Shown: piece by piece, positions 3,107 to 56,552 of the stretch
How positions within the stretch are numbered: position 1 is the first letter of the stretch
How the letters are laid out: every line of letters begins with the position of its first letter
Source: an uncultured Bifidobacteriaceae bacterium
GTDB taxonomy: Bacteria > Bacteroidota > Bacteroidia > UKL13-3
DNA: 64,000 nt
Direction of reading: 5' to 3'
Assembly: GCA_964392775.1 (NCBI GenBank)
Contig: CAYMRD010000011.1
Span: 40,410-104,409 of the forward strand
The notes under the pieces: generated by a model
Databases searched by the model: none
Told to the model about the DNA's origin: nothing
The model's input: only the letters and a program-made list of their open reading frames with translations
Position numbers and translations under genes: made by a program

Positions 3107-3330
3107 ATGGTGATGTTGTAATATAGTGTTAATAATTCATTCAATGTATATCCGCAAGTGTTCCCAAATGCATATTTGGCACGGCTTTGTGGCGAGAGAT
3201 CTTTGCCACTAAGCCAAAGGGGCTCAAAGTATCACTAAGTTTAAATTCTACTGGTAAGCTTGCAGATATACACTTCATTTTATCCATTTAATTTGTGGAA
3301 ATTTTCTCTCAACACACTTTTACAACATAT
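3107..3330 (-). repeat. Copy 1 of a ~220-bp structured element (inverted paralogue of 25328-25545, ~95% identical), immediately upstream of the minus-strand T9SS gene
   Basis: Reverse complement aligns base-for-base with 25328-25545, with about 12 mismatches. Contains 15-bp terminal inverted repeats and internal hairpins. Confidence 0.8.
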
Positions 3331-3444: not shown

Positions 3445-4548
3445 ATGAGTAAAAAAGGAAGAATTCTGGTTGCCATGAGTGGCGGCCTGGACAGTACGGT
3501 TACAGCCGTTATGTTAGCCGAAGAGGGCTACGAAGTAGTAGGGATCACCATGAAAACATGGGACTATGCCACAGCAGGCGGGAGCAAAAAGGAAACCGGT
3601 TGCTGCAGTCTGGATTCCATCAATGATGCCCGAACCATTGCCGTTAAACACGGTATTCACCACATGATTTTAGATATCCGCGAAGAGTTTGGCGATTTTG
3701 TAATCAACAACTTTGTGGATGAGTATATCGCAGGCCGAACCCCCAATCCTTGTGTATTGTGCAATACGCATATCAAATGGGAGGCTTTGCTCAAACGTGC
3801 CAACCAGCTCGATTGTGAGTTTATTGCCACCGGGCATTATGCGCAGGTGCGTAACGAAAACAACCGTTATGTGGTTTCAAAAGGATTGGATGAAAACAAA
3901 GACCAGTCGTATGTTTTATGGGGATTGAGCCAGTCGAGTCTTGAGCGTACCCGGTTCCCGTTAGGTGGTTTCCGCAAAACGGATATTCGCCAGATGGCTA
4001 TTGATATGGGCTATGAAGAACTGGCTAAAAAAAGTGAGAGTTACGAAATATGCTTTGTGCCCGATAATGATTACCGTGGTTTCTTAAAACGCAGGGTTGA
4101 AGGACTGGAAGCGCAGGTAGAAGGCGGAGAGTTTGTAACCCGCGAAGGGAAAGTATTGGGCAAACACCGCGGATATCCGTTTTATACCGTTGGGCAACGT
4201 AAAGGGTTGGAAATTGCCGTTGGTGAACCTTTGTTCGTTTTAGAGATTCAGCCCGAAACCAATAAGGTTGTATTGGGTCGTGAGCATGAGCTGAAACGCA
4301 AAGGGATGTGGGTACGCGGACTGAATATGGGTAAATATGAATACCTTAATGAGCCGCTGGAAGCCCTGACCAAGGTGCGCTACAAGGATGCAGGTACCAC
4401 TTCAATGATTGAACAGGAAGACAACCGCATGAAGGTGATCTTTAATGATGATGTGAAAGCCATTGCGCCCGGACAATCAGCTGTGTTTTATGAAGGCAAT
4501 GATGTTGTGGGTGGAGGATGGATTGAAAAGGCGTTTGATGTTGTTTAA
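3445..4548 (+). CDS. mnmA: tRNA-specific 2-thiouridylase MnmA
   Basis: N-terminal PP-loop ILVAMSGGLDSTV and a conserved Cys-containing C-terminal domain. 367 aa. Confidence 0.9.
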   Translation: MSKKGRILVAMSGGLDSTVTAVMLAEEGYEVVGITMKTWDYATAGGSKKETGCCSLDSINDARTIAVKHGIHHMILDIREEFGDFVINNFVDEYIAGRTPNPCVLCNTHIKWEALLKRANQLDCEFIATGHYAQVRNENNRYVVSKGLDENKDQSYVLWGLSQSSLERTRFPLGGFRKTDIRQMAIDMGYEELAKKSESYEICFVPDNDYRGFLKRRVEGLEAQVEGGEFVTREGKVLGKHRGYPFYTVGQRKGLEIAVGEPLFVLEIQPETNKVVLGREHELKRKGMWVRGLNMGKYEYLNEPLEALTKVRYKDAGTTSMIEQEDNRMKVIFNDDVKAIAPGQSAVFYEGNDVVGGGWIEKAFDVV

Positions 4549-4556
4549 TACCAATA

Positions 4557-4608
4557 GACTGAAGACTGAAGACTGAAGACTAAAGACTAAAGACTGAAGA
4601 CTAAAGAT
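4557..4608 (+). repeat. Tandem heptamer array (GACTGAA/GACTAAA) x7.4, starting 9 nt after the mnmA stop
   Basis: Direct reading gives gactgaa x3, gactaaa x2, gactgaa, gactaaa, then gat. Confidence 0.9.
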
Positions 4609-10790: not shown

Positions 10791-10906
10791 ATTTTTATTG
10801 CACATTGTTTGTTTTAAACGTTATGCCCGCGTGAGCGATTGCAGCGGAAATCCTTTTGCGTTGGGCTTGCAGGTAAGGAGCAAAAGATTTGAGCGAAAAG
10901 CGCGAC

Positions 10907-10972
10907 CCTGCAAGGATGTGCCACTACTTTGCCTTTTGATTAACCGAAATGCTGCTGCACATCCTTGCAGGG
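10907..10972 (+). other. Perfect 16-bp inverted repeat (ccctgcaaggatgtgc / gcacatccttgcaggg) with a 35-nt loop, 100 bp upstream of ccmC
   Basis: Arms at 10907-10922 and 10957-10972 are exact reverse complements. Confidence 0.85.
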
Positions 10973-11076
10973 ACACGCCCACTCTTAACTGTTGGTACTC
11001 TAAAAGCACTCGATATGAGGTTTTTAAATTTGCTTTCGGGTAGAGCTTCTCCCGAAATAATTCCTACATTTGCACC

Positions 11077-18261: not shown

Positions 18262-18567
18262 ATGAGATTTGACAAACACATATTTATTTGTGCCAACCAA
18301 AAGGCAGAAGGGAAGGCTTGTTGCGGCCATGATCAGGGACTTCATTTAGTGGAACGATTCAGAGAGGTACTTGCCGAAAAAGGCTTAAAAGGAAAAGTGA
18401 GAGCGCAACGTTCGGGTTGTTTGGATGCCTGCACCAAAGGTCCCGCTTTGGTTATCTATCCCGAAGGAACCTATTATGGTAATGTGCAATTGACGGATGT
18501 GGAACGTATTGTCGACCAGCATATCATTGGCAATTCCATACTAGAAGAGTTGGAGCTGAAATACTAA
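18262..18567 (+). CDS. (2Fe-2S) thioredoxin-like ferredoxin domain protein
   Basis: Cys pattern CCGH ... C...C in 101 aa, as in thioredoxin-like [2Fe-2S] ferredoxins. Confidence 0.6.
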   Translation: MRFDKHIFICANQKAEGKACCGHDQGLHLVERFREVLAEKGLKGKVRAQRSGCLDACTKGPALVIYPEGTYYGNVQLTDVERIVDQHIIGNSILEELELKY

Positions 18568-18616
18568 ATGGTTTGTGATGTGTGAATTAGGATTTGTGAT
18601 GTTTGATTTGGGAAAA

Positions 18617-18809
18617 ACAGACGACACCATTTCGTGTCTTTCTTCCTCATTAAAATTTGTGGCCTTCGTGTACAAGTCTAATACTCTTTTTTTTGTACAC
18701 GGACACTAAAAGGAAGAAAGATGAAAGACTACGAATAAAGTTCTAATTGACAGACGACCATGCTTCGTGCCTTTCTTCCTCATTAAAATTTGTGGCCTTC
18801 GTGTACAAG
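18617..18809 (+). repeat. Two direct 60-bp repeats (18617-18676, 18750-18809, ~88% identical) with a degenerate inverted copy between them (18686-18735)
   Basis: acagacgacacc...cattaaaatttgtggccttcgtgtacaag occurs twice. The middle segment ttttgtacacggacactaaaaggaagaaag is a partial reverse complement. Confidence 0.8.
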
Positions 18810-18871
18810 ATCATCATTAACATCCTCCACAATTCCCAAACTACATAATCAACAAATACGTATTTTGCGGC

Positions 18872-20668
18872 ATGTTTACGGCACACCTCAAGAGCATCAT
18901 CAGCAGCCTTCCCGACAGTCCCGGTGTTTATAAATACTACGACAGCGAAGGGGTATTGATGTATATCGGTAAAGCCAAAAAACTTAAAAAGCGTGTCTCA
19001 TCCTATTTTACCAAATCACACGACAGCCGAAAAACGGCCGTGATGGTAAGCAAGATTGCCGATATTCAATTCACACTGGTAGATTCGGAGATTGATGCCT
19101 TGCTGCTCGAAAATTCGCTTATCAAAACCTTTCAGCCCAGATTTAATATCAGCTTAAAGGACGATAAAACCTATCCATGGATCTGCATCAAAAAGGAACG
19201 GTTTCCACGCATTTTTTCTACCCGGCAGTATATCAAGGATGGTTCAGAGTATTTTGGTCCCTATGCATCGGGAAGCATGAAACATACCATATTGGATACG
19301 ATTAGAGGATTGTATCCAACCCGGAATTGCAACCTGCATTTATCTCAATCCAATATTGAAGAAGGAAAGTTTAAGGCTTGCCTCGAATACCAGATTGGCA
19401 ATTGCAAAGCACCCTGCATTGGAGTACAGTCGGAAGAAGACTACAATGCCTCCATCAAAGAAATCAAGAGCATTCTGAAAGGCAATACCGGAGTAGTGCA
19501 ACAACAGCTTAAACAGAACATGCAGGAAGCAGCAGCAGAATTGCGTTTTGAAGCAGCAGCACAGTACAAAAGGAAACTCGATATACTGGCTAATTACCAA
19601 AGCAAATCAACTATTGTAACTTCCATTCCCAATGATGTGGATGTATTTAGTATAGTGAGTGATGATAAGTTTGCGTTCGTAAATTTCTTAAAAGTATCAA
19701 ACGGAATGGTGATTCAAACCCAAACCTTTGAACTCAAAAAGAAACTGGAAGAAACCAAGGAAGAACTGCTGGAGTTTGCCATTGGTGAAGTGCGCGAACA
19801 ATACAAAAGTGTTTCGAGAGAGGTGATCATTCCGTTTCCTCTGGAGCTGGAGGACGAGCGCATAACCTTTACCATTCCTAAGGCAGGAGATAAAAAACAA
19901 CTGCTCGATCTTTCGTACAAAAACGCGATATATTATAAGAAAGAGAAATTATCGCAGTATGAAAAACTCAACCCGGACCTGAAAGTAGAGCGGGTACTTA
20001 CCCAAATGCAACAAGATCTCCGACTCAAAACTCTACCACGCCATATCGAGTGTTTTGATAACTCCAATATACAGGGAAACTTCCCGGTGTCGGCTATGGT
20101 GGTATTTAAAAATGCCAAACCCAGCAAAAAGGATTACCGTCACTTTAATGTACAAACGGTTGTTGGTCCCGATGATTTTGCTACCATGCGTGAGGTTATA
20201 TTCAGACGGTACCGCAGGGTGCTGGATGAACAAGAATCATTGCCTGATTTAATTATTGTAGACGGAGGGAAGGGACAACTGAGTTCTGCCATTGAGAGTT
20301 TAAAAGCTCTGGATTTATACGGCAAAGTTCCAATTTTGGGCATTGCCAAGCGATTGGAAGAACTGTATTACCCCGAAGATGAATTGCCTTTGTATATTGA
20401 TAAGAAATCAGAAACCCTCAAAATTATTCAGCAACTTAGGGACGAGGCTCACCGGTTTGGAATTACCCATCACCGCAACCGTAGAAGTAAAGGAACTATC
20501 AAATCAGAATTGAGCGAAATCAAAGGTATTGGGCAGGAAACACAAAAAATCTTGCTGAGCGAGCTGAAATCGGTTAAGCGCATTCGTGAATCTACTTTCG
20601 AATTATTGGCTGATATCATTGGACCTGCAAAGGCTAAACTGGTTTGGGGACATTTTCATCAAAGCTAA
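18872..20668 (+). CDS. uvrC: Excinuclease ABC subunit C
   Basis: GIY-YIG N-terminus (GVYKYYDSEGVLMYIGKAKKLKKRVSSYF), a UvrBC domain, and C-terminal RNase H-like and HhH regions. Confidence 0.9.
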   Translation: MFTAHLKSIISSLPDSPGVYKYYDSEGVLMYIGKAKKLKKRVSSYFTKSHDSRKTAVMVSKIADIQFTLVDSEIDALLLENSLIKTFQPRFNISLKDDKTYPWICIKKERFPRIFSTRQYIKDGSEYFGPYASGSMKHTILDTIRGLYPTRNCNLHLSQSNIEEGKFKACLEYQIGNCKAPCIGVQSEEDYNASIKEIKSILKGNTGVVQQQLKQNMQEAAAELRFEAAAQYKRKLDILANYQSKSTIVTSIPNDVDVFSIVSDDKFAFVNFLKVSNGMVIQTQTFELKKKLEETKEELLEFAIGEVREQYKSVSREVIIPFPLELEDERITFTIPKAGDKKQLLDLSYKNAIYYKKEKLSQYEKLNPDLKVERVLTQMQQDLRLKTLPRHIECFDNSNIQGNFPVSAMVVFKNAKPSKKDYRHFNVQTVVGPDDFATMREVIFRRYRRVLDEQESLPDLIIVDGGKGQLSSAIESLKALDLYGKVPILGIAKRLEELYYPEDELPLYIDKKSETLKIIQQLRDEAHRFGITHHRNRRSKGTIKSELSEIKGIGQETQKILLSELKSVKRIRESTFELLADIIGPAKAKLVWGHFHQS

Positions 20669-22743: not shown

Positions 22744-22758
22744 TTAAAAATAAATGAC

Positions 22759-22856
22759 TATCGGGATATTGCCCCCCTGCCCCCTGCCCCTGGCGGGGAC
22801 TAGCCGCACACTTTCTAAAAGACTTTAGGGTTAGGGGGCAGGGGGCAATATTCCGA
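22759..22856 (+). repeat. Long GC-rich palindromic element: 24-bp arms (atcgggatattgccccctgccccc / gggggcagggggcaatattccgat, 23/24 paired) around a 50-nt loop that contains the ccgcacactttctaaaagac core
   Basis: Direct reading. It overlaps the first ATG of the downstream ORF. Confidence 0.8.
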
Positions 22857-22876
22857 TGGTCAGTAAAAATAAATCT

Positions 22877-25327: not shown

Positions 25328-25545
25328 CATGTTGTAAAAGAGTGTTGAGAGAAAATTGCCACAAATTAAATGGATAAAATGAAGTGTATATCTGCAAGCT
25401 TACCAGTAGAATTTAAACTTAGTGATACTTTGAGCCTTCGTGGCTTAGTGGCAAAGAACTCTCGCCACAAAGCCGTGCCAAATATACATTTGGGAACACT
25501 TGCGGATATACATTGAATGAATCATCAACACTATCATTACAACAT
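25328..25545 (+). repeat. Copy 2 of the ~220-bp structured element, ending 14 nt before the rsmG ATG
   Basis: ~95% identical to the reverse complement of 3107-3330. TIRs gtgtatatctgcaag / cttgcggatatacat. Internal hairpins ggcttagtggc...gccacaaagcc and ccaaatatacatttgg. Contains tacatttg, a TAnnTTTG match. Confidence 0.8.
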
Positions 25546-25559
25546 CACCAAAATAAACA

Positions 25560-37589: not shown

Positions 37590-37705
37590 TTGTCCTCCGC
37601 ACCCTCTAATCCAAAATGGAGTTCCGCACACAGTTCTAATTGACAGGCGTAGGCATGCGGCTGGCCCCCTTTCAGGGGCAGGGATGAGCGGGGGGAGCTG
37701 ACAAA
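37590..37705 (+). repeat. Intergenic mosaic repeat (member B): tandem ccgcacMc..tctaat half-sites, gttctaattgacagg block, ccccctttcaggggcaggg palindrome
   Basis: Shares an exact 14-nt gttctaattgacag with 18740-18753 and the ccgcacac core with 22803 and 40123. Confidence 0.7.
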
Positions 37706-50820: not shown

Positions 50821-51000
50821 ATGAAAGGGCAAGTTAATCATATACAATCAGAGGAAGATAAATTCATTATGCGAATGAATATGTCTTATGAAGAACGTTT
50901 CAGGGCCTTTATGAAAGCATTGCGTTTTAAAGCAAAACTAAAGAAAGCTACAATCATTAAACCTGTTGTGGATGATGAAATGAGTCTGATCAAAAAATAA
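50821..51000 (+). CDS. Possible 59-aa small ORF between GT4 and ribBA
   Basis: ATG to TAA open frame MKGQVNHIQSEEDKF...DDEMSLIKK, basic and helical. No homology could be asserted. Confidence 0.2.
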   Translation: MKGQVNHIQSEEDKFIMRMNMSYEERFRAFMKALRFKAKLKKATIIKPVVDDEMSLIKK

Positions 51001-51015
51001 GAATAATAACAATAC

Positions 51016-54439: not shown

Positions 54440-54833
54440 TGTAATACTTTGTACACGAAGACACGAAATCTGAATAAAGAGGAAAGGCACTAAGTATTGC
54501 CATCAAAAAAGACACGCCTTGTCCTGATGTTGTAACTGTCACACTGAGTTTATCGAAGTGTGCATAGGTGGGGAATATTCAATTCTTGGCGGGCTCCGGA
54601 GGAGCCTAATCTCTCTATAAAAACCAAACCCAGGGTATTCGCGCTCCGTAGGTGCGCAATCGCAATACAATGTTTTCTGTTTTTTAGAAATAGGAAGAAG
54701 AAAGGTTTCGCTCCTCTGGAGCTCCTGTCTTTTACGTGGTTTAATGGGCTATAGAGATTGACCTCATCAGGAGGCGGATGCTACCATTTAAGCACTCATT
54801 CTTAGTGTTATTAAATTGCTCTTCTCCCGATAG
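54440..54833. repeat. 390-bp non-coding convergent spacer dense in hairpins, carrying a copy of the tttgtacacgaag...acacgaaat repeat family
   Basis: 54447-54480 matches the 18.6-kb repeat arms. Hairpins ggctccggaggagcc, gcgctccgtaggtgcgc, gctcctctggagc, cccgatagttatcggg. Confidence 0.6.
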
Positions 54834-56552
54834 TTATCGGGATGTCTTCGGTACAAAAAATTGAAATAAAGAAGCAATGAGCACAACCAGTAAACACCCG
54901 ATTACATTGAGCCACAAGAAGGAAACAATATCAGATACATAAATACCAATCACCCCGGCTTCGGCCAGTAAGGCGGCATAAAATACAGCTTTGCTGCCAA
55001 TTCGTTTCAGGTAGAAGGCAACCACAAAAATGCCAAGCATTGTTCCGTAAAACAAACTTCCCAATACGTTCACCGCTTCAATCAAACTGCCAAGTTGAGA
55101 AGCAAACATGGCTGTTGCAATGCAAAACAAACCCCAAAATAAGGTGATCCACTTAGATGCTTTGTAGTAATGAAGGTCATTTTTGTTGGGATACCACATC
55201 CGCTTATACAAATCAATAACGGTAGAAGAGGCCAGCGAATTAAGTGCAGCGGCAATACTTCCCCAGGCTGCCAAAAAGATAACGGCAATCAGTAACCCGA
55301 TTAAACCTTTGGGTAAATGGTGTACCACAAAATATAAAAAGATATAATTGGTATCATTTACATCCGCTGTTTTGTCGGCTTGTTTAATGGCATCAAGGGT
55401 TTGTTTACGTACTTCTTGTTTGTTGCTTTCGATGGTTTTAAGTTCCGTTTGCAACGTGCTTATCTGAGATTGAGAATTATCTTTAATCGCATTACTCAAC
55501 AGCACAACCTGTGATTGCGACATACTGCTCAATGAATCGTATTGTGTAGCTAATCGCGTGAGATTTTCCCTGCAATCCACACAATCGGTTTTGTATGCTT
55601 TTTGCAATTGAGCATCATTAAAAAATACGGGAGCCTTGTAAAATAAATAGAATGAAAACACCAATGCACCAATCAGCAAAATTAAAAACTGCATGGGCAC
55701 TTTTACCAGTCCGTTCATCAATAAACCCATCCGGCTTTCTTTAATGCTCTTAGCGGTAAGGTATCGCCCAACCTGACTCTGGTCTGTTCCAAAATAGGAG
55801 AGTGCCAGAAAGAAACCACCAATCAGTCCGCTCCAGATATTGTATTTGTCTTTCCACCAGGCACTGTCGGTTACATCAATTTTTGTTTCGATGATATTGA
55901 GCTTGCCCATTTTGCCTGCTACCTGCAACGCATCTGTAAACCCAACACCTTCGGGTAATAAATGCACCACCATGTATCCGGCTAAAAACATCCCGATAAA
56001 CACGATAAACAACTGCTGCATCTGTGTATAGGCTACGGCTTTGGCTCCACCTGTTAACGTGTACACAATCAGCAAACCACCCATTACAATATTGGTGAGG
56101 TAAATATTCCAGCCCAATAAAGACGATAAGATGATAGACGGAGCATAAATGCTGATTCCGGTTGAGAGTCCGCGGGATACCAGAAAAAGGGCAGAGGTAA
56201 GCGCCCGTGTTCTCAAATCAAACCGTTGTTCCAAATACTCGTAAGCCGTATATACTTTGAGTTTGTGAAAGATGGGCACAAACGTAATGCAGAGCACAAC
56301 CATCGCCAGCGGCAAGCCAAAATAATATTGTACAAACCGCATTCCATCGGTATAGGCCTGTCCGGGTGCCGATAAAAACGTGATGGCACTGGCTTGTGTT
56401 CCCATAATCGACAGCAGGATGAGAAACCAACTCATGGAGTTATTGCTCTTGAAATAACTGTCCAGATTTTTCTCATGGGTGCTTTTATACACGCCATAGC
56501 TCACCACGGCTGCCAGTGTTACAGTCAGTACAATCCAATCAATTAAGCTCAT
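54834..56552 (-). CDS. Sodium:solute symporter (SSS) family transporter with ~90-aa hydrophilic coiled-coil insert
   Basis: 13-14 TM with an SSS signature region. Insert at aa 311-402 (nt 55347-55622). Confidence 0.8.
   Translation of the reverse strand: MSLIDWIVLTVTLAAVVSYGVYKSTHEKNLDSYFKSNNSMSWFLILLSIMGTQASAITFLSAPGQAYTDGMRFVQYYFGLPLAMVVLCITFVPIFHKLKVYTAYEYLEQRFDLRTRALTSALFLVSRGLSTGISIYAPSIILSSLLGWNIYLTNIVMGGLLIVYTLTGGAKAVAYTQMQQLFIVFIGMFLAGYMVVHLLPEGVGFTDALQVAGKMGKLNIIETKIDVTDSAWWKDKYNIWSGLIGGFFLALSYFGTDQSQVGRYLTAKSIKESRMGLLMNGLVKVPMQFLILLIGALVFSFYLFYKAPVFFNDAQLQKAYKTDCVDCRENLTRLATQYDSLSSMSQSQVVLLSNAIKDNSQSQISTLQTELKTIESNKQEVRKQTLDAIKQADKTADVNDTNYIFLYFVVHHLPKGLIGLLIAVIFLAAWGSIAAALNSLASSTVIDLYKRMWYPNKNDLHYYKASKWITLFWGLFCIATAMFASQLGSLIEAVNVLGSLFYGTMLGIFVVAFYLKRIGSKAVFYAALLAEAGVIGIYVSDIVSFLWLNVIGCLLVVLIASLFQFFVPKTSR

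What the first reader, a model, noticed from the sequence alone, without database searches (positions are those of the whole stretch)
18617..18809. Direct 60-bp repeats flanking an inverted partial copy; a member of a multi-locus mosaic repeat family
R1 (18617-18676) and R2 (18750-18809) are about 88% identical. Between them, ttttgtacacggacactaaaaggaagaaag is a partial reverse complement, so the RNA or DNA can fold into a long imperfect stem. The same ttgtacacgaag / agacacgaaat blocks recur at 54447-54480. The block gttctaattgacag at 18740-18753 is identical to 37633-37646. This indicates short sequence modules are being shuffled between intergenic sites.
Basis: seen in the sequence. Interest (0 to 1): 0.5.

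Follow-up and report, generated by a model that had tools for sequence, protein, structure and literature searches.

The report
Miniature inverted-repeat mobile element ends
The two 60-bp repeats and the inverted piece between them are the ends of a small non-coding foldback (MITE-like) element family found in a few related uncultured Bacteroidota genomes; this is an ordinary kind of selfish DNA, here sitting where close relatives carry a TonB-like gene.

Summary
R1 (18617-18676) and R2 (18750-18809) match at 54 of 60 positions, and their last 38 nt are identical. An inverted short copy, M, lies between them at 18691-18721. A further copy lies at 54449-54507. The shared 14/15-mer at 37632 is not beyond chance.

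The "shuffled modules" are parts of one unit of about 59 nt. It always starts TTGTACAC(G) and carries 2-3 internal CAC-N-AA-R sub-repeats. This unit is the terminal inverted repeat of a foldback element:
- M plus R2 form a 119-nt mini-element (18691-18809), and R1 is an extra solo end.
- The 54.4-kb copy is the left end of a 408-nt element (54449-54856).
- Complete or partial elements sit at the orthologous site in two relatives (L032, L029). Solo ends occur in a third MAG of the same clade. Other relatives lack the element.

The 18.6-kb block fills exactly the gap where relatives carry a 267-aa TonB-like gene.

No Rfam hit, conserved ORF, target-site duplication or transposase partner was found. 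My verdict is a new member of a known kind (MITE-like repeat). Interest is modest.

The parts
18617..18676 (-). R1, a solo 'long end' of the family. Read on the minus strand it is TTGTACACGAAGGCCACAAATTTTAATGAGGAAGAAAGACACGAAATGGTGTCGTCTGT. It has no partner end on its inner side.
   Evidence: Its inner boundary lies within about 10 nt of the left homology breakpoint with relatives, near 18606.
18691..18721 (+). M, a 'short end': TTTGTACACGGACACTAAAAGGAAGAAAGA. It is the same short form as the right end of the element in relative L029.
   Evidence: E = 0.015.
18750..18809 (-). R2, a 'long end'. Its TTGTACAC terminus lies 63 nt upstream of the uvrC start codon.
   Evidence: It matches the left end of the L029 element at 51/59 positions (86%).
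18691..18809 (-). E1, a 119-nt mini-element. It runs long end (R2), then 28 nt of interior, then the inverted short end (M), with the TTGTACAC termini facing outward.
   Evidence: It has the same architecture as L029:4774-4995 and L032:1783-2036. The DNA fold is -15.7 kcal/mol, z = -3.0.
18607..18815 (.). A lineage-specific block with no counterpart in relatives. In relatives this position holds a 267-aa TonB_C gene and its flanks.
   Evidence: Searches give the gene maps of L017, L018, L019 and L021. One search gives the homology limits (18542-18606 and 18816-18886). One search shows the synteny and that no TonB-like gene lies elsewhere in the window.
54449..54507 (+). It starts about 12 nt after the terminator of the DUF2911 gene.
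   Evidence: I2, I3.
54790..54856 (-). Right end of E2. Read on the minus strand it is TTGTAC--CGAAGACA[TCCCGATAACTATCGGGA]GAAGAG...CACTAAG. It carries a nested 18-nt hairpin at 54825-54842 and a 2-nt deletion. It supplies about the last 7 codons and the stop of the SSF transporter gene (54834-56552, minus strand).
   Evidence: It matches the L032 right end at 49/60 positions and the L032 left end at 51/61. The partner search scored above every shuffle.
54449..54856 (+). E2, a 408-nt foldback element that fills the whole spacer between the DUF2911 terminator and the SSF gene.
   Evidence: The RNA fold is -139 kcal/mol against -104.9 +/- 5.5 for shuffles, z = -6.15, with the termini paired. The orthologous 254-nt element in L032 has z = -6.6.
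18739..18753 (+). A 15-mer, AGTTCTAATTGACAG, shared with 37632-37646. It is not part of the family and is a chance-level match.
   Evidence: 22% of random 304-nt segments share an exact 14-mer elsewhere in the window.

Best explanation
The repeats are the terminal inverted repeats of a small, non-coding, foldback (MITE-like) mobile-element family. The family is present in a genus-level clade of uncultured Bacteroidota.

**The unit.** Each end is a unit of about 59 nt. It begins with the invariant terminus TTGTACAC(G), often preceded by a T-run. It contains 2-3 direct sub-repeats CAC-N-AA-R at offsets 6, 14 and 40. I infer that these are binding sites for a transposase supplied in trans. A short form of the end (about 30 nt) lacks the middle of the unit.

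**Element structure.** A complete element is a long end, a variable interior, and an inverted end, with the termini facing outward.

**Locus 1.** The window holds one 119-nt mini-element (M+R2, 18691-18809) and one solo end (R1).

**Locus 2.** The window holds a 408-nt element (54449-54856).

**What is shown.**
- The inverted-repeat architecture occurs at two independent loci and in three genomes.
- Copies are dispersed next to unrelated genes.
- Distribution among close relatives is patchy.
- The ends are conserved better than the surrounding DNA.
- The elements have strong foldback potential.

**What is inferred.**
- The element is or was mobilised in trans.
- Loss of the TonB-like gene between fdx and uvrC in this lineage was caused by, or accompanied, the element's insertion and rearrangement. 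The breakpoints coincide with the element boundaries.

**Likely side effects.** The element replaces the last codons of the SSF transporter gene. It also places a structured insert 63 nt upstream of uvrC while leaving the conserved proximal upstream region intact.
For: **Architecture.**
- L032:1783-2036 is a complete 254-nt element with two inverted 60-70-nt family ends, lying between the DUF2911 terminator and the SSF stop.
- L029:4774-4995 has a long end plus an inverted short end at the same site.
- The window has the same arrangement twice: E2 at 54449-54856 and E1 at 18691-18809.

**Foldback potential.** z = -6.15 for E2, -6.6 for the L032 element and -3.0 for E1.

**Invariant terminus and sub-repeats.**
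- 11 of the 12 ends begin with TTGTACACG. The E2 right end has a 2-nt deletion and reads TTGTACCG.
- Each long end holds 2-3 CAC-N-AA-R sub-repeats, against 0.05 expected.

**Dispersal.** Solo ends lie next to unrelated housekeeping genes in MAG JAZKGH01 (L004, L005, L007). That MAG belongs to the same clade.

**Patchiness.**
- No copy was found in about 43 kb of GCA_040384145.1 (L019, L060). This includes the site orthologous to the L007 copy.
- No copy was found in the contigs of the ERZ28593387-type relative (L017, L025-L027). L031 also lacks a copy.

**Conservation.**
- Ends are 83-88% identical between the window and L029/L032.
- The adjacent region, mostly coding, is about 77% identical, and other intergenic DNA does not align.
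- R2 is closer to the L029 left end (86%) than to the other copy in its own genome (76%).

**Non-coding.** Reading frames break between copies (direct reading of the alignment), and there is no Rfam family.

**Assembly behaviour.** Short-read contigs of the source organism stop inside the 38-nt exact repeat.

**Association with gene differences.** Both family loci in the window coincide with whole-gene presence/absence differences relative to the closest relative. A TonB-like gene is absent at locus 1, and a 1323-aa LamG/T9SS gene is absent at locus 2.
Against: - No target-site duplication is visible at any complete element (by direct reading).
- No autonomous copy or transposase gene with these ends was found.
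- Copy number is low in what I could see. There are 5 ends at 2 loci in 64 kb, 3 strict copies in one MAG among 185,579 species genomes, and only chance-like metagenome hits.
- Most loci outside the window hold solo ends without a partner within 1 kb. The dispersing unit could therefore be the roughly 59-nt module rather than the element bounded by inverted ends.
- No clean empty site was recovered. Where relatives lack the element, the whole spacer differs.
- The three copies at the DUF2911/SSF site may be one ancestral insertion. If so, there are only a few independent insertion events.
Confidence: 0.62

Rival explanations
1. A host-recruited REP/BIME-like extragenic repeat. On this reading the roughly 59-nt unit and its nested hairpins are maintained because they act at the DNA or RNA level, for example as bidirectional terminators or insulators, mRNA 3'-end stabilisers, or binding sites for a nucleoid or regulatory protein that recognises the CAC-N-AA-R repeats. 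Active transposition would not be the cause.
For: - Copies sit just after gene 3' ends or terminators (E2, L029, L032, L005, L007).
- E2 lies between convergent genes.
- The ends are more conserved than neighbouring DNA.
- Solo units predominate outside the window.
- A small REP-like hairpin, TCCCGATAnnTATCGGGA, is nested in some ends and also occurs free-standing in JAZKGH01.
Against: - The unit itself is not palindromic. The L032 long end folds at z = -1.5, and its only strong stem is the nested hairpin.
- Orientation relative to neighbouring genes is inconsistent.
- Close relatives lack the unit at orthologous sites with no apparent replacement.
- The interior changes quickly between near-identical flanks.
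- No RAYT-type gene was seen, though I did not search for one systematically.
Confidence: 0.17
2. A structured non-coding RNA gene or cis-regulatory RNA. This would apply mainly to the 408-nt E2 and the R1-M-R2 block upstream of uvrC, which would fold into long stems and act as RNA.
For: - Folding is very stable: z = -6.15 for E2 and -6.6 for the L032 element.
- The positions are intergenic.
Against: - Rfam gives no hit at gathering or at permissive thresholds.
- The stability comes from the inverted duplicate ends.
- Between L029 and L032 the interior is only about 60-70% alike, by direct reading of the alignment, and has large indels. Their upstream flanks differ at only 4 of about 85 aligned positions.
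- The R1-M-R2 spacer as a whole is not unusually stable.
- No promoter or terminator signals were found by the scans, though that scan does not cover Bacteroidota promoters.
Confidence: 0.07
3. An invertible DNA switch (inverton). On this reading the inverted ends are recombinase sites and the enclosed segment flips to control a neighbouring gene such as uvrC.
For: - Inverted repeats flank short segments in intergenic DNA.
- Invertons are common in Bacteroidota (general knowledge).
- E1 lies upstream of uvrC.
Against: - The enclosed segment in E1 is only 28 nt.
- E2 lies between two convergent 3' ends, with nothing to switch.
- Solo ends exist.
- No recombinase gene is adjacent.
Confidence: 0.03
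4. A purely local tandem duplication plus chance matches elsewhere, with no family.
For: - R1 and R2 are only 133 nt apart and share an identical 38-mer.
- The 37633 match is chance-level.
Against: - Only the 60-nt units are repeated. The 73 nt between R1 and R2 is not repeated after R2.
- Related copies exist at 54.4 kb and in three other genomes, with E-values of 1e-8 to 1e-15.
Confidence: 0.02

Closest known systems
Bacterial MITEs in general, and those described in Bacteroidota: the 'BrickBuilt' MITE of Porphyromonas gingivalis (PMC4596501) and the MITE of the Cardinium endosymbiont (PMC9769881)
   Same: - Small (119-408 nt) and non-coding.
- Terminal inverted repeats and foldback potential.
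- Intergenic location and patchy distribution among close relatives.
- Short-read assemblies break at copies.
   Different: - No sequence similarity to anything I could search: the literature sequence search and plasmid blastn found nothing.
- No target-site duplication and no parent IS identified.
- The inverted repeats are unusually long (about 59 nt) with internal sub-repeats.
- Many copies are solo ends.
Correia elements (CREE/NEMIS) of Neisseria
   Same: - A foldback element of about 100-150 nt bounded by inverted repeats.
- Long and short variants that differ by an internal deletion.
- Insertion next to genes, so that the element can be co-transcribed and can alter gene ends.
The properties of Correia elements are from my own knowledge.
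   Different: - Correia elements have 26-bp inverted repeats, a TA duplication and hundreds of copies. None of these is shown here.
- The host phylum is unrelated and the sequence is different.
REP/REPIN and CGTC-tagged palindromic repeats (PMC3733652)
   Same: - Extragenic, occurring singly or as inverted dimers.
- Often located after gene 3' ends.
- CGTC-type repeats were reported in Bacteroidetes and lack a dedicated transposase.
- The nested hairpin TCCCGATAnnTATCGGGA resembles a REP in size.
   Different: - The roughly 59-nt family unit is purine-rich on one strand and is not a palindrome.
- It has no consistent GTAG or CGTC tag.
- No high copy number is shown.
Transposon ends with several subterminal transposase-binding repeats and unequal left and right ends, as in Mu and Tn7-like elements
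   Same: - Termini can be read as TG...CA.
- Two or three direct sub-repeats (CAC-N-AA-R) lie within about 50 nt of each end.
- There is a long and a short version of the end.
This is a lead recalled from memory of Mu and Tn7 end structure, not a test.
   Different: - No transposase and no 5-bp duplication were found.
- The elements here are a hundredfold smaller.
- Nothing in the viral collection carried the ends outside coding sequence.

Membership tests
MITE (miniature inverted-repeat transposable element) | Small size (under about 500 bp) and no coding capacity | tested here: met
   E1 is 119 nt, E2 is 408 nt, the L032 element is 254 nt and the L029 element is about 222 nt. No reading frame is conserved across the copies in the alignment.
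MITE (miniature inverted-repeat transposable element) | Terminal inverted repeats with the termini facing outward | tested here: met
   TTGTACAC...GTGTACAA bounds E1, E2, L029 and L032. The folds pair the two ends.
MITE (miniature inverted-repeat transposable element) | Multiple dispersed copies within a genome | tested here: inconclusive
   There are 2 loci (5 ends) in this 64-kb window. There are 3 loci in MAG JAZKGH01 by a strict pattern.
MITE (miniature inverted-repeat transposable element) | Target-site duplication flanking each insertion | tested here: not met
   No direct duplication flanks E1, E2 or the L032 element. T-runs and A-runs at the boundaries blur the exact termini, and old insertions may have lost the duplication.
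MITE (miniature inverted-repeat transposable element) | A related autonomous IS or transposon with the same ends that encodes the transposase | not testable with these tools
   None lies in the window, since no family end flanks a gene there. The viral scans gave only coding-sequence coincidences.
MITE (miniature inverted-repeat transposable element) | Presence/absence polymorphism at orthologous sites | tested here: met
   At locus 2 the element is present in the window, L029 and L032. It is absent in L031 and in L025-L027. At locus 1 it is absent in L017, L018, L019 and L021. The site of the L007 copy is empty of the element in L060. No clean empty site was recovered.
REP / REPIN | The unit is a 20-40-nt imperfect palindrome with a GTAG or CGTC tag | tested here: not met
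   The roughly 59-nt unit is not palindromic. The L032 long end folds at z = -1.5, and its only strong stem is the nested hairpin. Only that nested 18-nt hairpin is palindromic, and the tag is inconsistent (CGTC in one copy, CATC in two).
REP / REPIN | Associated RAYT (IS200/IS605-type) transposase gene | not tested
   The genes of the window were not all annotated. None of the neighbours I examined is a transposase.
Any Rfam RNA family | Covariance-model score at or above the family's gathering threshold | tested here: not met
   In the whole window only a tRNA and Flavo-1 pass. The permissive scans of both loci give only matches far below gathering scores.
Bacteroidota inverton (invertible promoter) | Inverted repeats flanking a promoter segment next to a regulated gene, with both orientations present in a population | not testable with these tools
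   Read-level data are not available. The anatomy argues against it, because the E1 interior is 28 nt and E2 lies between convergent gene ends.

The most novel reading that the evidence does not exclude
The roughly 59-nt ends have TG...CA-type termini, 2-3 spaced CAC-N-AA-R sub-repeats, and unequal long and short versions. They could be the ends of an undescribed transposon lineage in Bacteroidota, of the Mu/Tn7 type with multiple binding sites. Its miniature derivatives would then drive gene loss. Both family loci in this window coincide with the whole-gene presence/absence differences seen against the closest relatives: a TonB-like gene and a 1323-aa T9SS cargo gene. One element also rewrote the 3' end of a transporter gene.
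Probability: 0.12. Interest if true: 0.5.

Novelty: new member of a known kind. Interest (0 to 1): 0.3.

Why it matters
**Practical value.**
- It explains why short-read assemblies of this organism break at fdx/uvrC.
- It warns annotators that the C-terminus of the SSF transporter and the uvrC upstream region are element-derived or element-adjacent.
- It marks two loci where gene content differs between close relatives.

**Biological value.**
- It adds a previously undescribed foldback repeat family to a poorly studied clade of uncultured Bacteroidota.
- It shows small palindromes nested inside the ends of a larger repeat.

**What would raise the interest.** If the parent transposon were found, the ends with several internal repeats would define its recognition sites. 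As it stands this is ordinary selfish DNA, not a new mechanism.

Tried and rejected
- **Small ORF in the repeat.** The frame TTG-TAC-ACG... gives YTKATNFNEEERHE in R1 and R2. It hits stops or shifts frame in the L007 and L004 copies, so it is not coding (direct reading).
- **Bacteroidota promoter.** I looked for the -33 TTTG / -7 TAnnTTTG consensus. Only L007 gives a proper TAnnTTTG at the T-run/TTG junction. The R-orientation TAAAATTTG has the wrong spacing. This is not supported.
- **Sigma-54 box (GGCAC-N5-TTGC).** The spacing is off by one in the 54.4-kb copy, and the GG is absent in other copies.
- **Common regulon.** The neighbouring genes are unrelated: uvrC, DUF2911, SSF, a tRNA_bind protein, peptidase M3, DinB_2, a beta-CASP RNase and Vut_1.
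- **Origin from the lost TonB-like gene or its spacers.** blastn with word size 7 finds no significant similarity, and tblastn finds no TonB remnant.
- **Phage or plasmid origin.** The strict pattern has 0 viral hits. The looser pattern has 27 viral hits; the two recurrent groups among them both lie inside ORFs. Plasmid blastn gives only 20-27-nt chance matches.
- **Literature search for the 12-mers.** It returned only unrelated eukaryotic papers.
- **The 15-mer shared with 37632.** It is at chance level.
- **Partner ends for the JAZKGH01 solo copies.** None lies within 1 kb.
- **Clean empty site for the L007 copy in GCA_040384145.1.** The whole spacer is non-homologous, so no boundary or duplication could be read.
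- **A conserved small hairpin at the inner end of the unit (GrCA...TGyC).** A few compensatory-looking changes are visible by eye. There are too few copies, and R2 and the JAZKGH01 copies break it, so I did not pursue it.

Full report
**1. The observation**

The fdx-uvrC spacer runs from 18568 to 18871 (304 nt). It lies between a 101-aa ferredoxin-like gene (18262-18567, + strand) and uvrC (18872-20668, + strand).

- R1 (18617-18676) and R2 (18750-18809) are 60-nt direct repeats with 54/60 ungapped identity.
- Their last 38 nt are identical. That 38-mer occurs exactly twice in the window, against 0 expected.
- Between them, 18691-18721 reads TTTGTACACGGACACTAAAAGGAAGAAAGA. This is an inverted, shortened copy, which I call M.
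- A profile built from the copies finds one more significant member in the window, at 54446-54504 on the opposite strand (E = 2e-16). It is 75% identical to R2 over 56 nt.
I treat it as chance.

**2. One unit, not shuffled blocks**

Aligned in the orientation opposite to R1 and R2, all copies begin sharply at TTGTACACG (one, the E2 right end, has a 2-nt deletion there). They run for about 59 nt:

TTGTACACGAAGGCCACAAATTTTAATGAGGAAGAAAGGCACGAAGCATGGTCGTCTGT.

- Each unit contains 2-3 direct sub-repeats CAC-N-AA-R at offsets 6, 14 and 40, against 0.05 expected per unit.
AGACACGAAAT is the third sub-repeat in R1 but the second in the 54.4-kb copy.
- The unit is not coding, because frames break between copies.
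- It matches no Rfam family.

**3. Relatives reveal the architecture**

The source genome is not in the searchable genome collection, since its own copies were not returned by the pattern scan. Orthologous loci from relatives were fetched through neighbouring proteins instead.

*The DUF2911/SSF site.*
- Contig L032 carries a complete 254-nt element (L032:1783-2036) between the DUF2911 terminator and the SSF stop codon. It has a family unit at each end, in inverted orientation with the termini outward.
- L029 has a long end and, about 120 nt further on, an inverted short end at its contig end.
- The L029 short end (TTTGTACACGAAGGCACGAAAGGAAGAAA...) has the same form as M in the window.
- Guided by L032, I found the missing right end in the window at 54790-54856. 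nhmmer had missed it because it carries a nested 18-nt hairpin (TCCCGATAACTATCGGGA) and a 2-nt deletion. It matches the L032 ends at 49/60 and 51/61 positions.

*Resulting picture of the window.*
- E2 = 54449-54856 (408 nt) fills the entire spacer.
- E1 = 18691-18809 (119 nt) consists of R2 as long end, 28 nt of interior, and M as short end.
- R1 is a solo long end. Its terminus faces M's terminus across about 15 nt.

*Folding.*

| Sequence | Result |
|---|---|
| E2 (RNA) | -139 vs -104.9 +/- 5.5 kcal/mol, z = -6.15 |
| L032 element (RNA) | z = -6.6 |
| E1 (DNA) | z = -3.0 |
| R1+M (DNA) | z = -3.4 |
| Whole spacer (RNA) | z = -1.2 and -1.7, unremarkable |

**4. Distribution**

- A strict two-block pattern found three further copies among 185,579 species genomes. 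All three are solo ends in MAG JAZKGH01 (L004, L005, L007), next to unrelated housekeeping genes.
- The same scan also returned two chance hits.
- The metagenome scan gave only chance-like hits, with one possible distant member, L008.
- The pattern was too strict. It misses 2 of the 5 window ends and all four L029/L032 ends. These counts are therefore lower bounds.

JAZKGH01, GCA_040384145.1 and the window genome belong to one genus-level clade. The beta-CASP protein of JAZKGH01 is 88% identical to that of GCA_040384145.1, and the UvrC of GCA_040384145.1 is 86% identical to the window's.

Within that clade the family is patchy:
- No copy in about 43 kb of GCA_040384145.1, including the site orthologous to the L007 copy.
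- No copy in the contigs of the ERZ28593387-type relative (L017, L025-L027).
- No copy in L031.

Ends are 83-88% identical between the window and L029/L032. The adjacent region, mostly coding, is about 77% identical, and other intergenic DNA does not align. R2 is closer to the L029 left end (86%) than to E2's left end in the same genome (76%).

Between the near-identical L029 and L032 flanks, the element interior and the middle of both ends differ by large indels, including gain or loss of the hairpin on both arms. The element is therefore unstable inside and conserved at its termini.

**5. Context in the window**

*Locus 1.*
- In four relatives (UvrC 86-90% identical), a 267-aa TonB_C gene lies between fdx and uvrC.
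- Homology of the window to these relatives stops near 18606 and resumes at 18816.
- The R1-M-R2 block (18617-18809) therefore fills the non-homologous gap exactly.
- No TonB remnant lies in the gap, and no copy of the gene lies elsewhere in the window.
- The roughly 56 nt proximal to uvrC, including the conserved TATTTTGCGGCATG, is retained.

*Locus 2.*
- The ERZ28593387-type relative has a 1323-aa LamG/Por_Secre_tail gene between DUF2911 and SSF.
- L031 has a different spacer with neither that gene nor the element.
- The locus therefore exists in three states.

*Effect on the SSF gene.* The E2 right terminus abuts the SSF ORF, and the window protein ends ...ASLFQFFVPKTSR*. The last codons and the stop are encoded by TTTTTTGTACCGAAGACATCCCGATAA. 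The L032, L031 and L027 proteins end differently, and in L032 the element starts about 15 nt after the stop.

*Assemblies.* Short-read (Logan) contigs of the source organism end inside the 38-nt exact repeat on both sides.

**6. Interpretation**

The best explanation is a MITE-like foldback element family. Its roughly 59-nt inverted ends carry repeated putative transposase-binding motifs. It would be mobilised in trans by an unidentified enzyme.

- *Shown:* architecture, dispersal, patchiness, terminal conservation and foldback potential.
- *Inferred:* mobility, and a causal link to loss of the TonB-like gene. A possible route is a deletion with one endpoint at R1's inner boundary.
- *Weaknesses:* no target-site duplication, no parent element, a low observed copy number, many solo ends, and no clean empty site.

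The rivals are scored in the Rival explanations section: a REP-like host-function repeat, a structured RNA, an inverton, and local duplication plus chance. Local duplication plus chance is refuted. The others are less likely but not excluded.

**7. Comparison with known systems**

- It works like bacterial MITEs. Correia elements are the closest analogue in size and in having long and short variants. BrickBuilt (PMC4596501) and the Cardinium MITE (PMC9769881) are precedents in the phylum.
- It shares no detectable sequence with anything searchable.
- It fails the target-site-duplication criterion, and the parent-element criterion could not be tested.
- It is not a REP, because the unit is not palindromic. 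However, a REP-sized hairpin is nested in some ends and also occurs free-standing in JAZKGH01. CGTC-type repeats without a transposase have been reported in Bacteroidetes (PMC3733652).

**8. Verdict**

- It is a new member of a known kind, and interest is modest at 0.3.
- The most novel reading not excluded is that these are the ends of an undescribed transposon with multiple binding sites whose miniature derivatives drive gene loss (probability about 0.12).

Noticed in passing
window 3107-3330 (+) and 25329-25552 (-): A second, unrelated intergenic repeat. It is 224 nt long, has two copies 95% identical in inverted orientation 22 kb apart, and has its own 9-nt terminal inverted repeat (ATGTTGTAA / TTACAACAT). 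It looks like another MITE family.
   Followed up: partly
window 22757-22860: A G/C-rich foldback of about 104 nt (ATCGGGATATTGCCCCCCTGCCCCC...GGGGGCAGGGGGCAATATTCCGAT; MFE -68.6 kcal/mol). It lies in a spacer that is only 18 nt long in relative L017, so it is a lineage-specific palindromic insertion. There is one copy in the window.
   Followed up: partly
window 54825-54842; L032:1800-1817 and 2004-2019; L004:1909-1924; L007:6661-6676: A small REP-like hairpin, TCCCGATAnnTATCGGGA. It is nested inside the ends of the main element in the window and in L032. It is also free-standing after genes in MAG JAZKGH01, where the two copies share flanks (GTTGACTGAGCGG...AGAAGsCAACTG). It appears to be a separate tiny palindromic repeat family.
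   Followed up: partly
window 54834-54860 (3' end of the SSF gene 54834-56552, minus strand): About the last 7 codons and the stop codon of the sodium:solute symporter gene are encoded by the terminus of the foldback element (...FFVPKTSR*). Relatives have different, native tails.
   Followed up: yes
window 18858-18874 and the orthologous sites in L017, L019, L021 and L022: TATTTTGC(G/A)G(C/A)ATG immediately upstream of, and including, the uvrC start codon is conserved in all relatives. It is a Bacteroidota -7-box-like motif ending about 5 nt before the ATG, which suggests a very short or absent leader.
   Followed up: no
window 18572-18613: A GT-rich 21-nt tandem pair (TTTGTGATGTGTGAATTAGGA / TTTGTGATGTTTGATTTGGGA) lies directly after the fdx stop codon. 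Relatives have a similar GT-rich repetitive stretch there.
   Followed up: no
window 10821-10911 and 10900-10978: A Flavo-1 RNA motif (Rfam RF01705, 55.7 bits) is followed by a 22-nt inverted repeat with 91% complementarity.
   Followed up: no
window 4556-4607: A tandem 7-nt repeat (AGACTGA / AGACTAA) with about 7 copies lies just after the ORF 3445-4548.
   Followed up: no
window 54585-54730 (interior of E2); L031:1780-2000: Several short GC-rich hairpins of the type GCTCC-N-GGAGC (GGGCTCCGGAGGAGCC, GCGCTCCGTAGGTGCGC, GCTCCTCTGGAGC) lie inside E2. They pair with each other in the predicted fold. L031 carries a different pair of repeats (GTCTTCGACTCCGCTCAGAC / GGCTTCAACTCCGCTAAGCC) in the same spacer.
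   Followed up: no
window 50822-51001 compared with L025:5328-5813: The window has only a small ORF of about 59 aa where relative L025 has a 161-aa ORF between the glycosyltransferase and ribBA genes. This is another small gene-content difference, and it is not associated with the repeat family.
   Followed up: no
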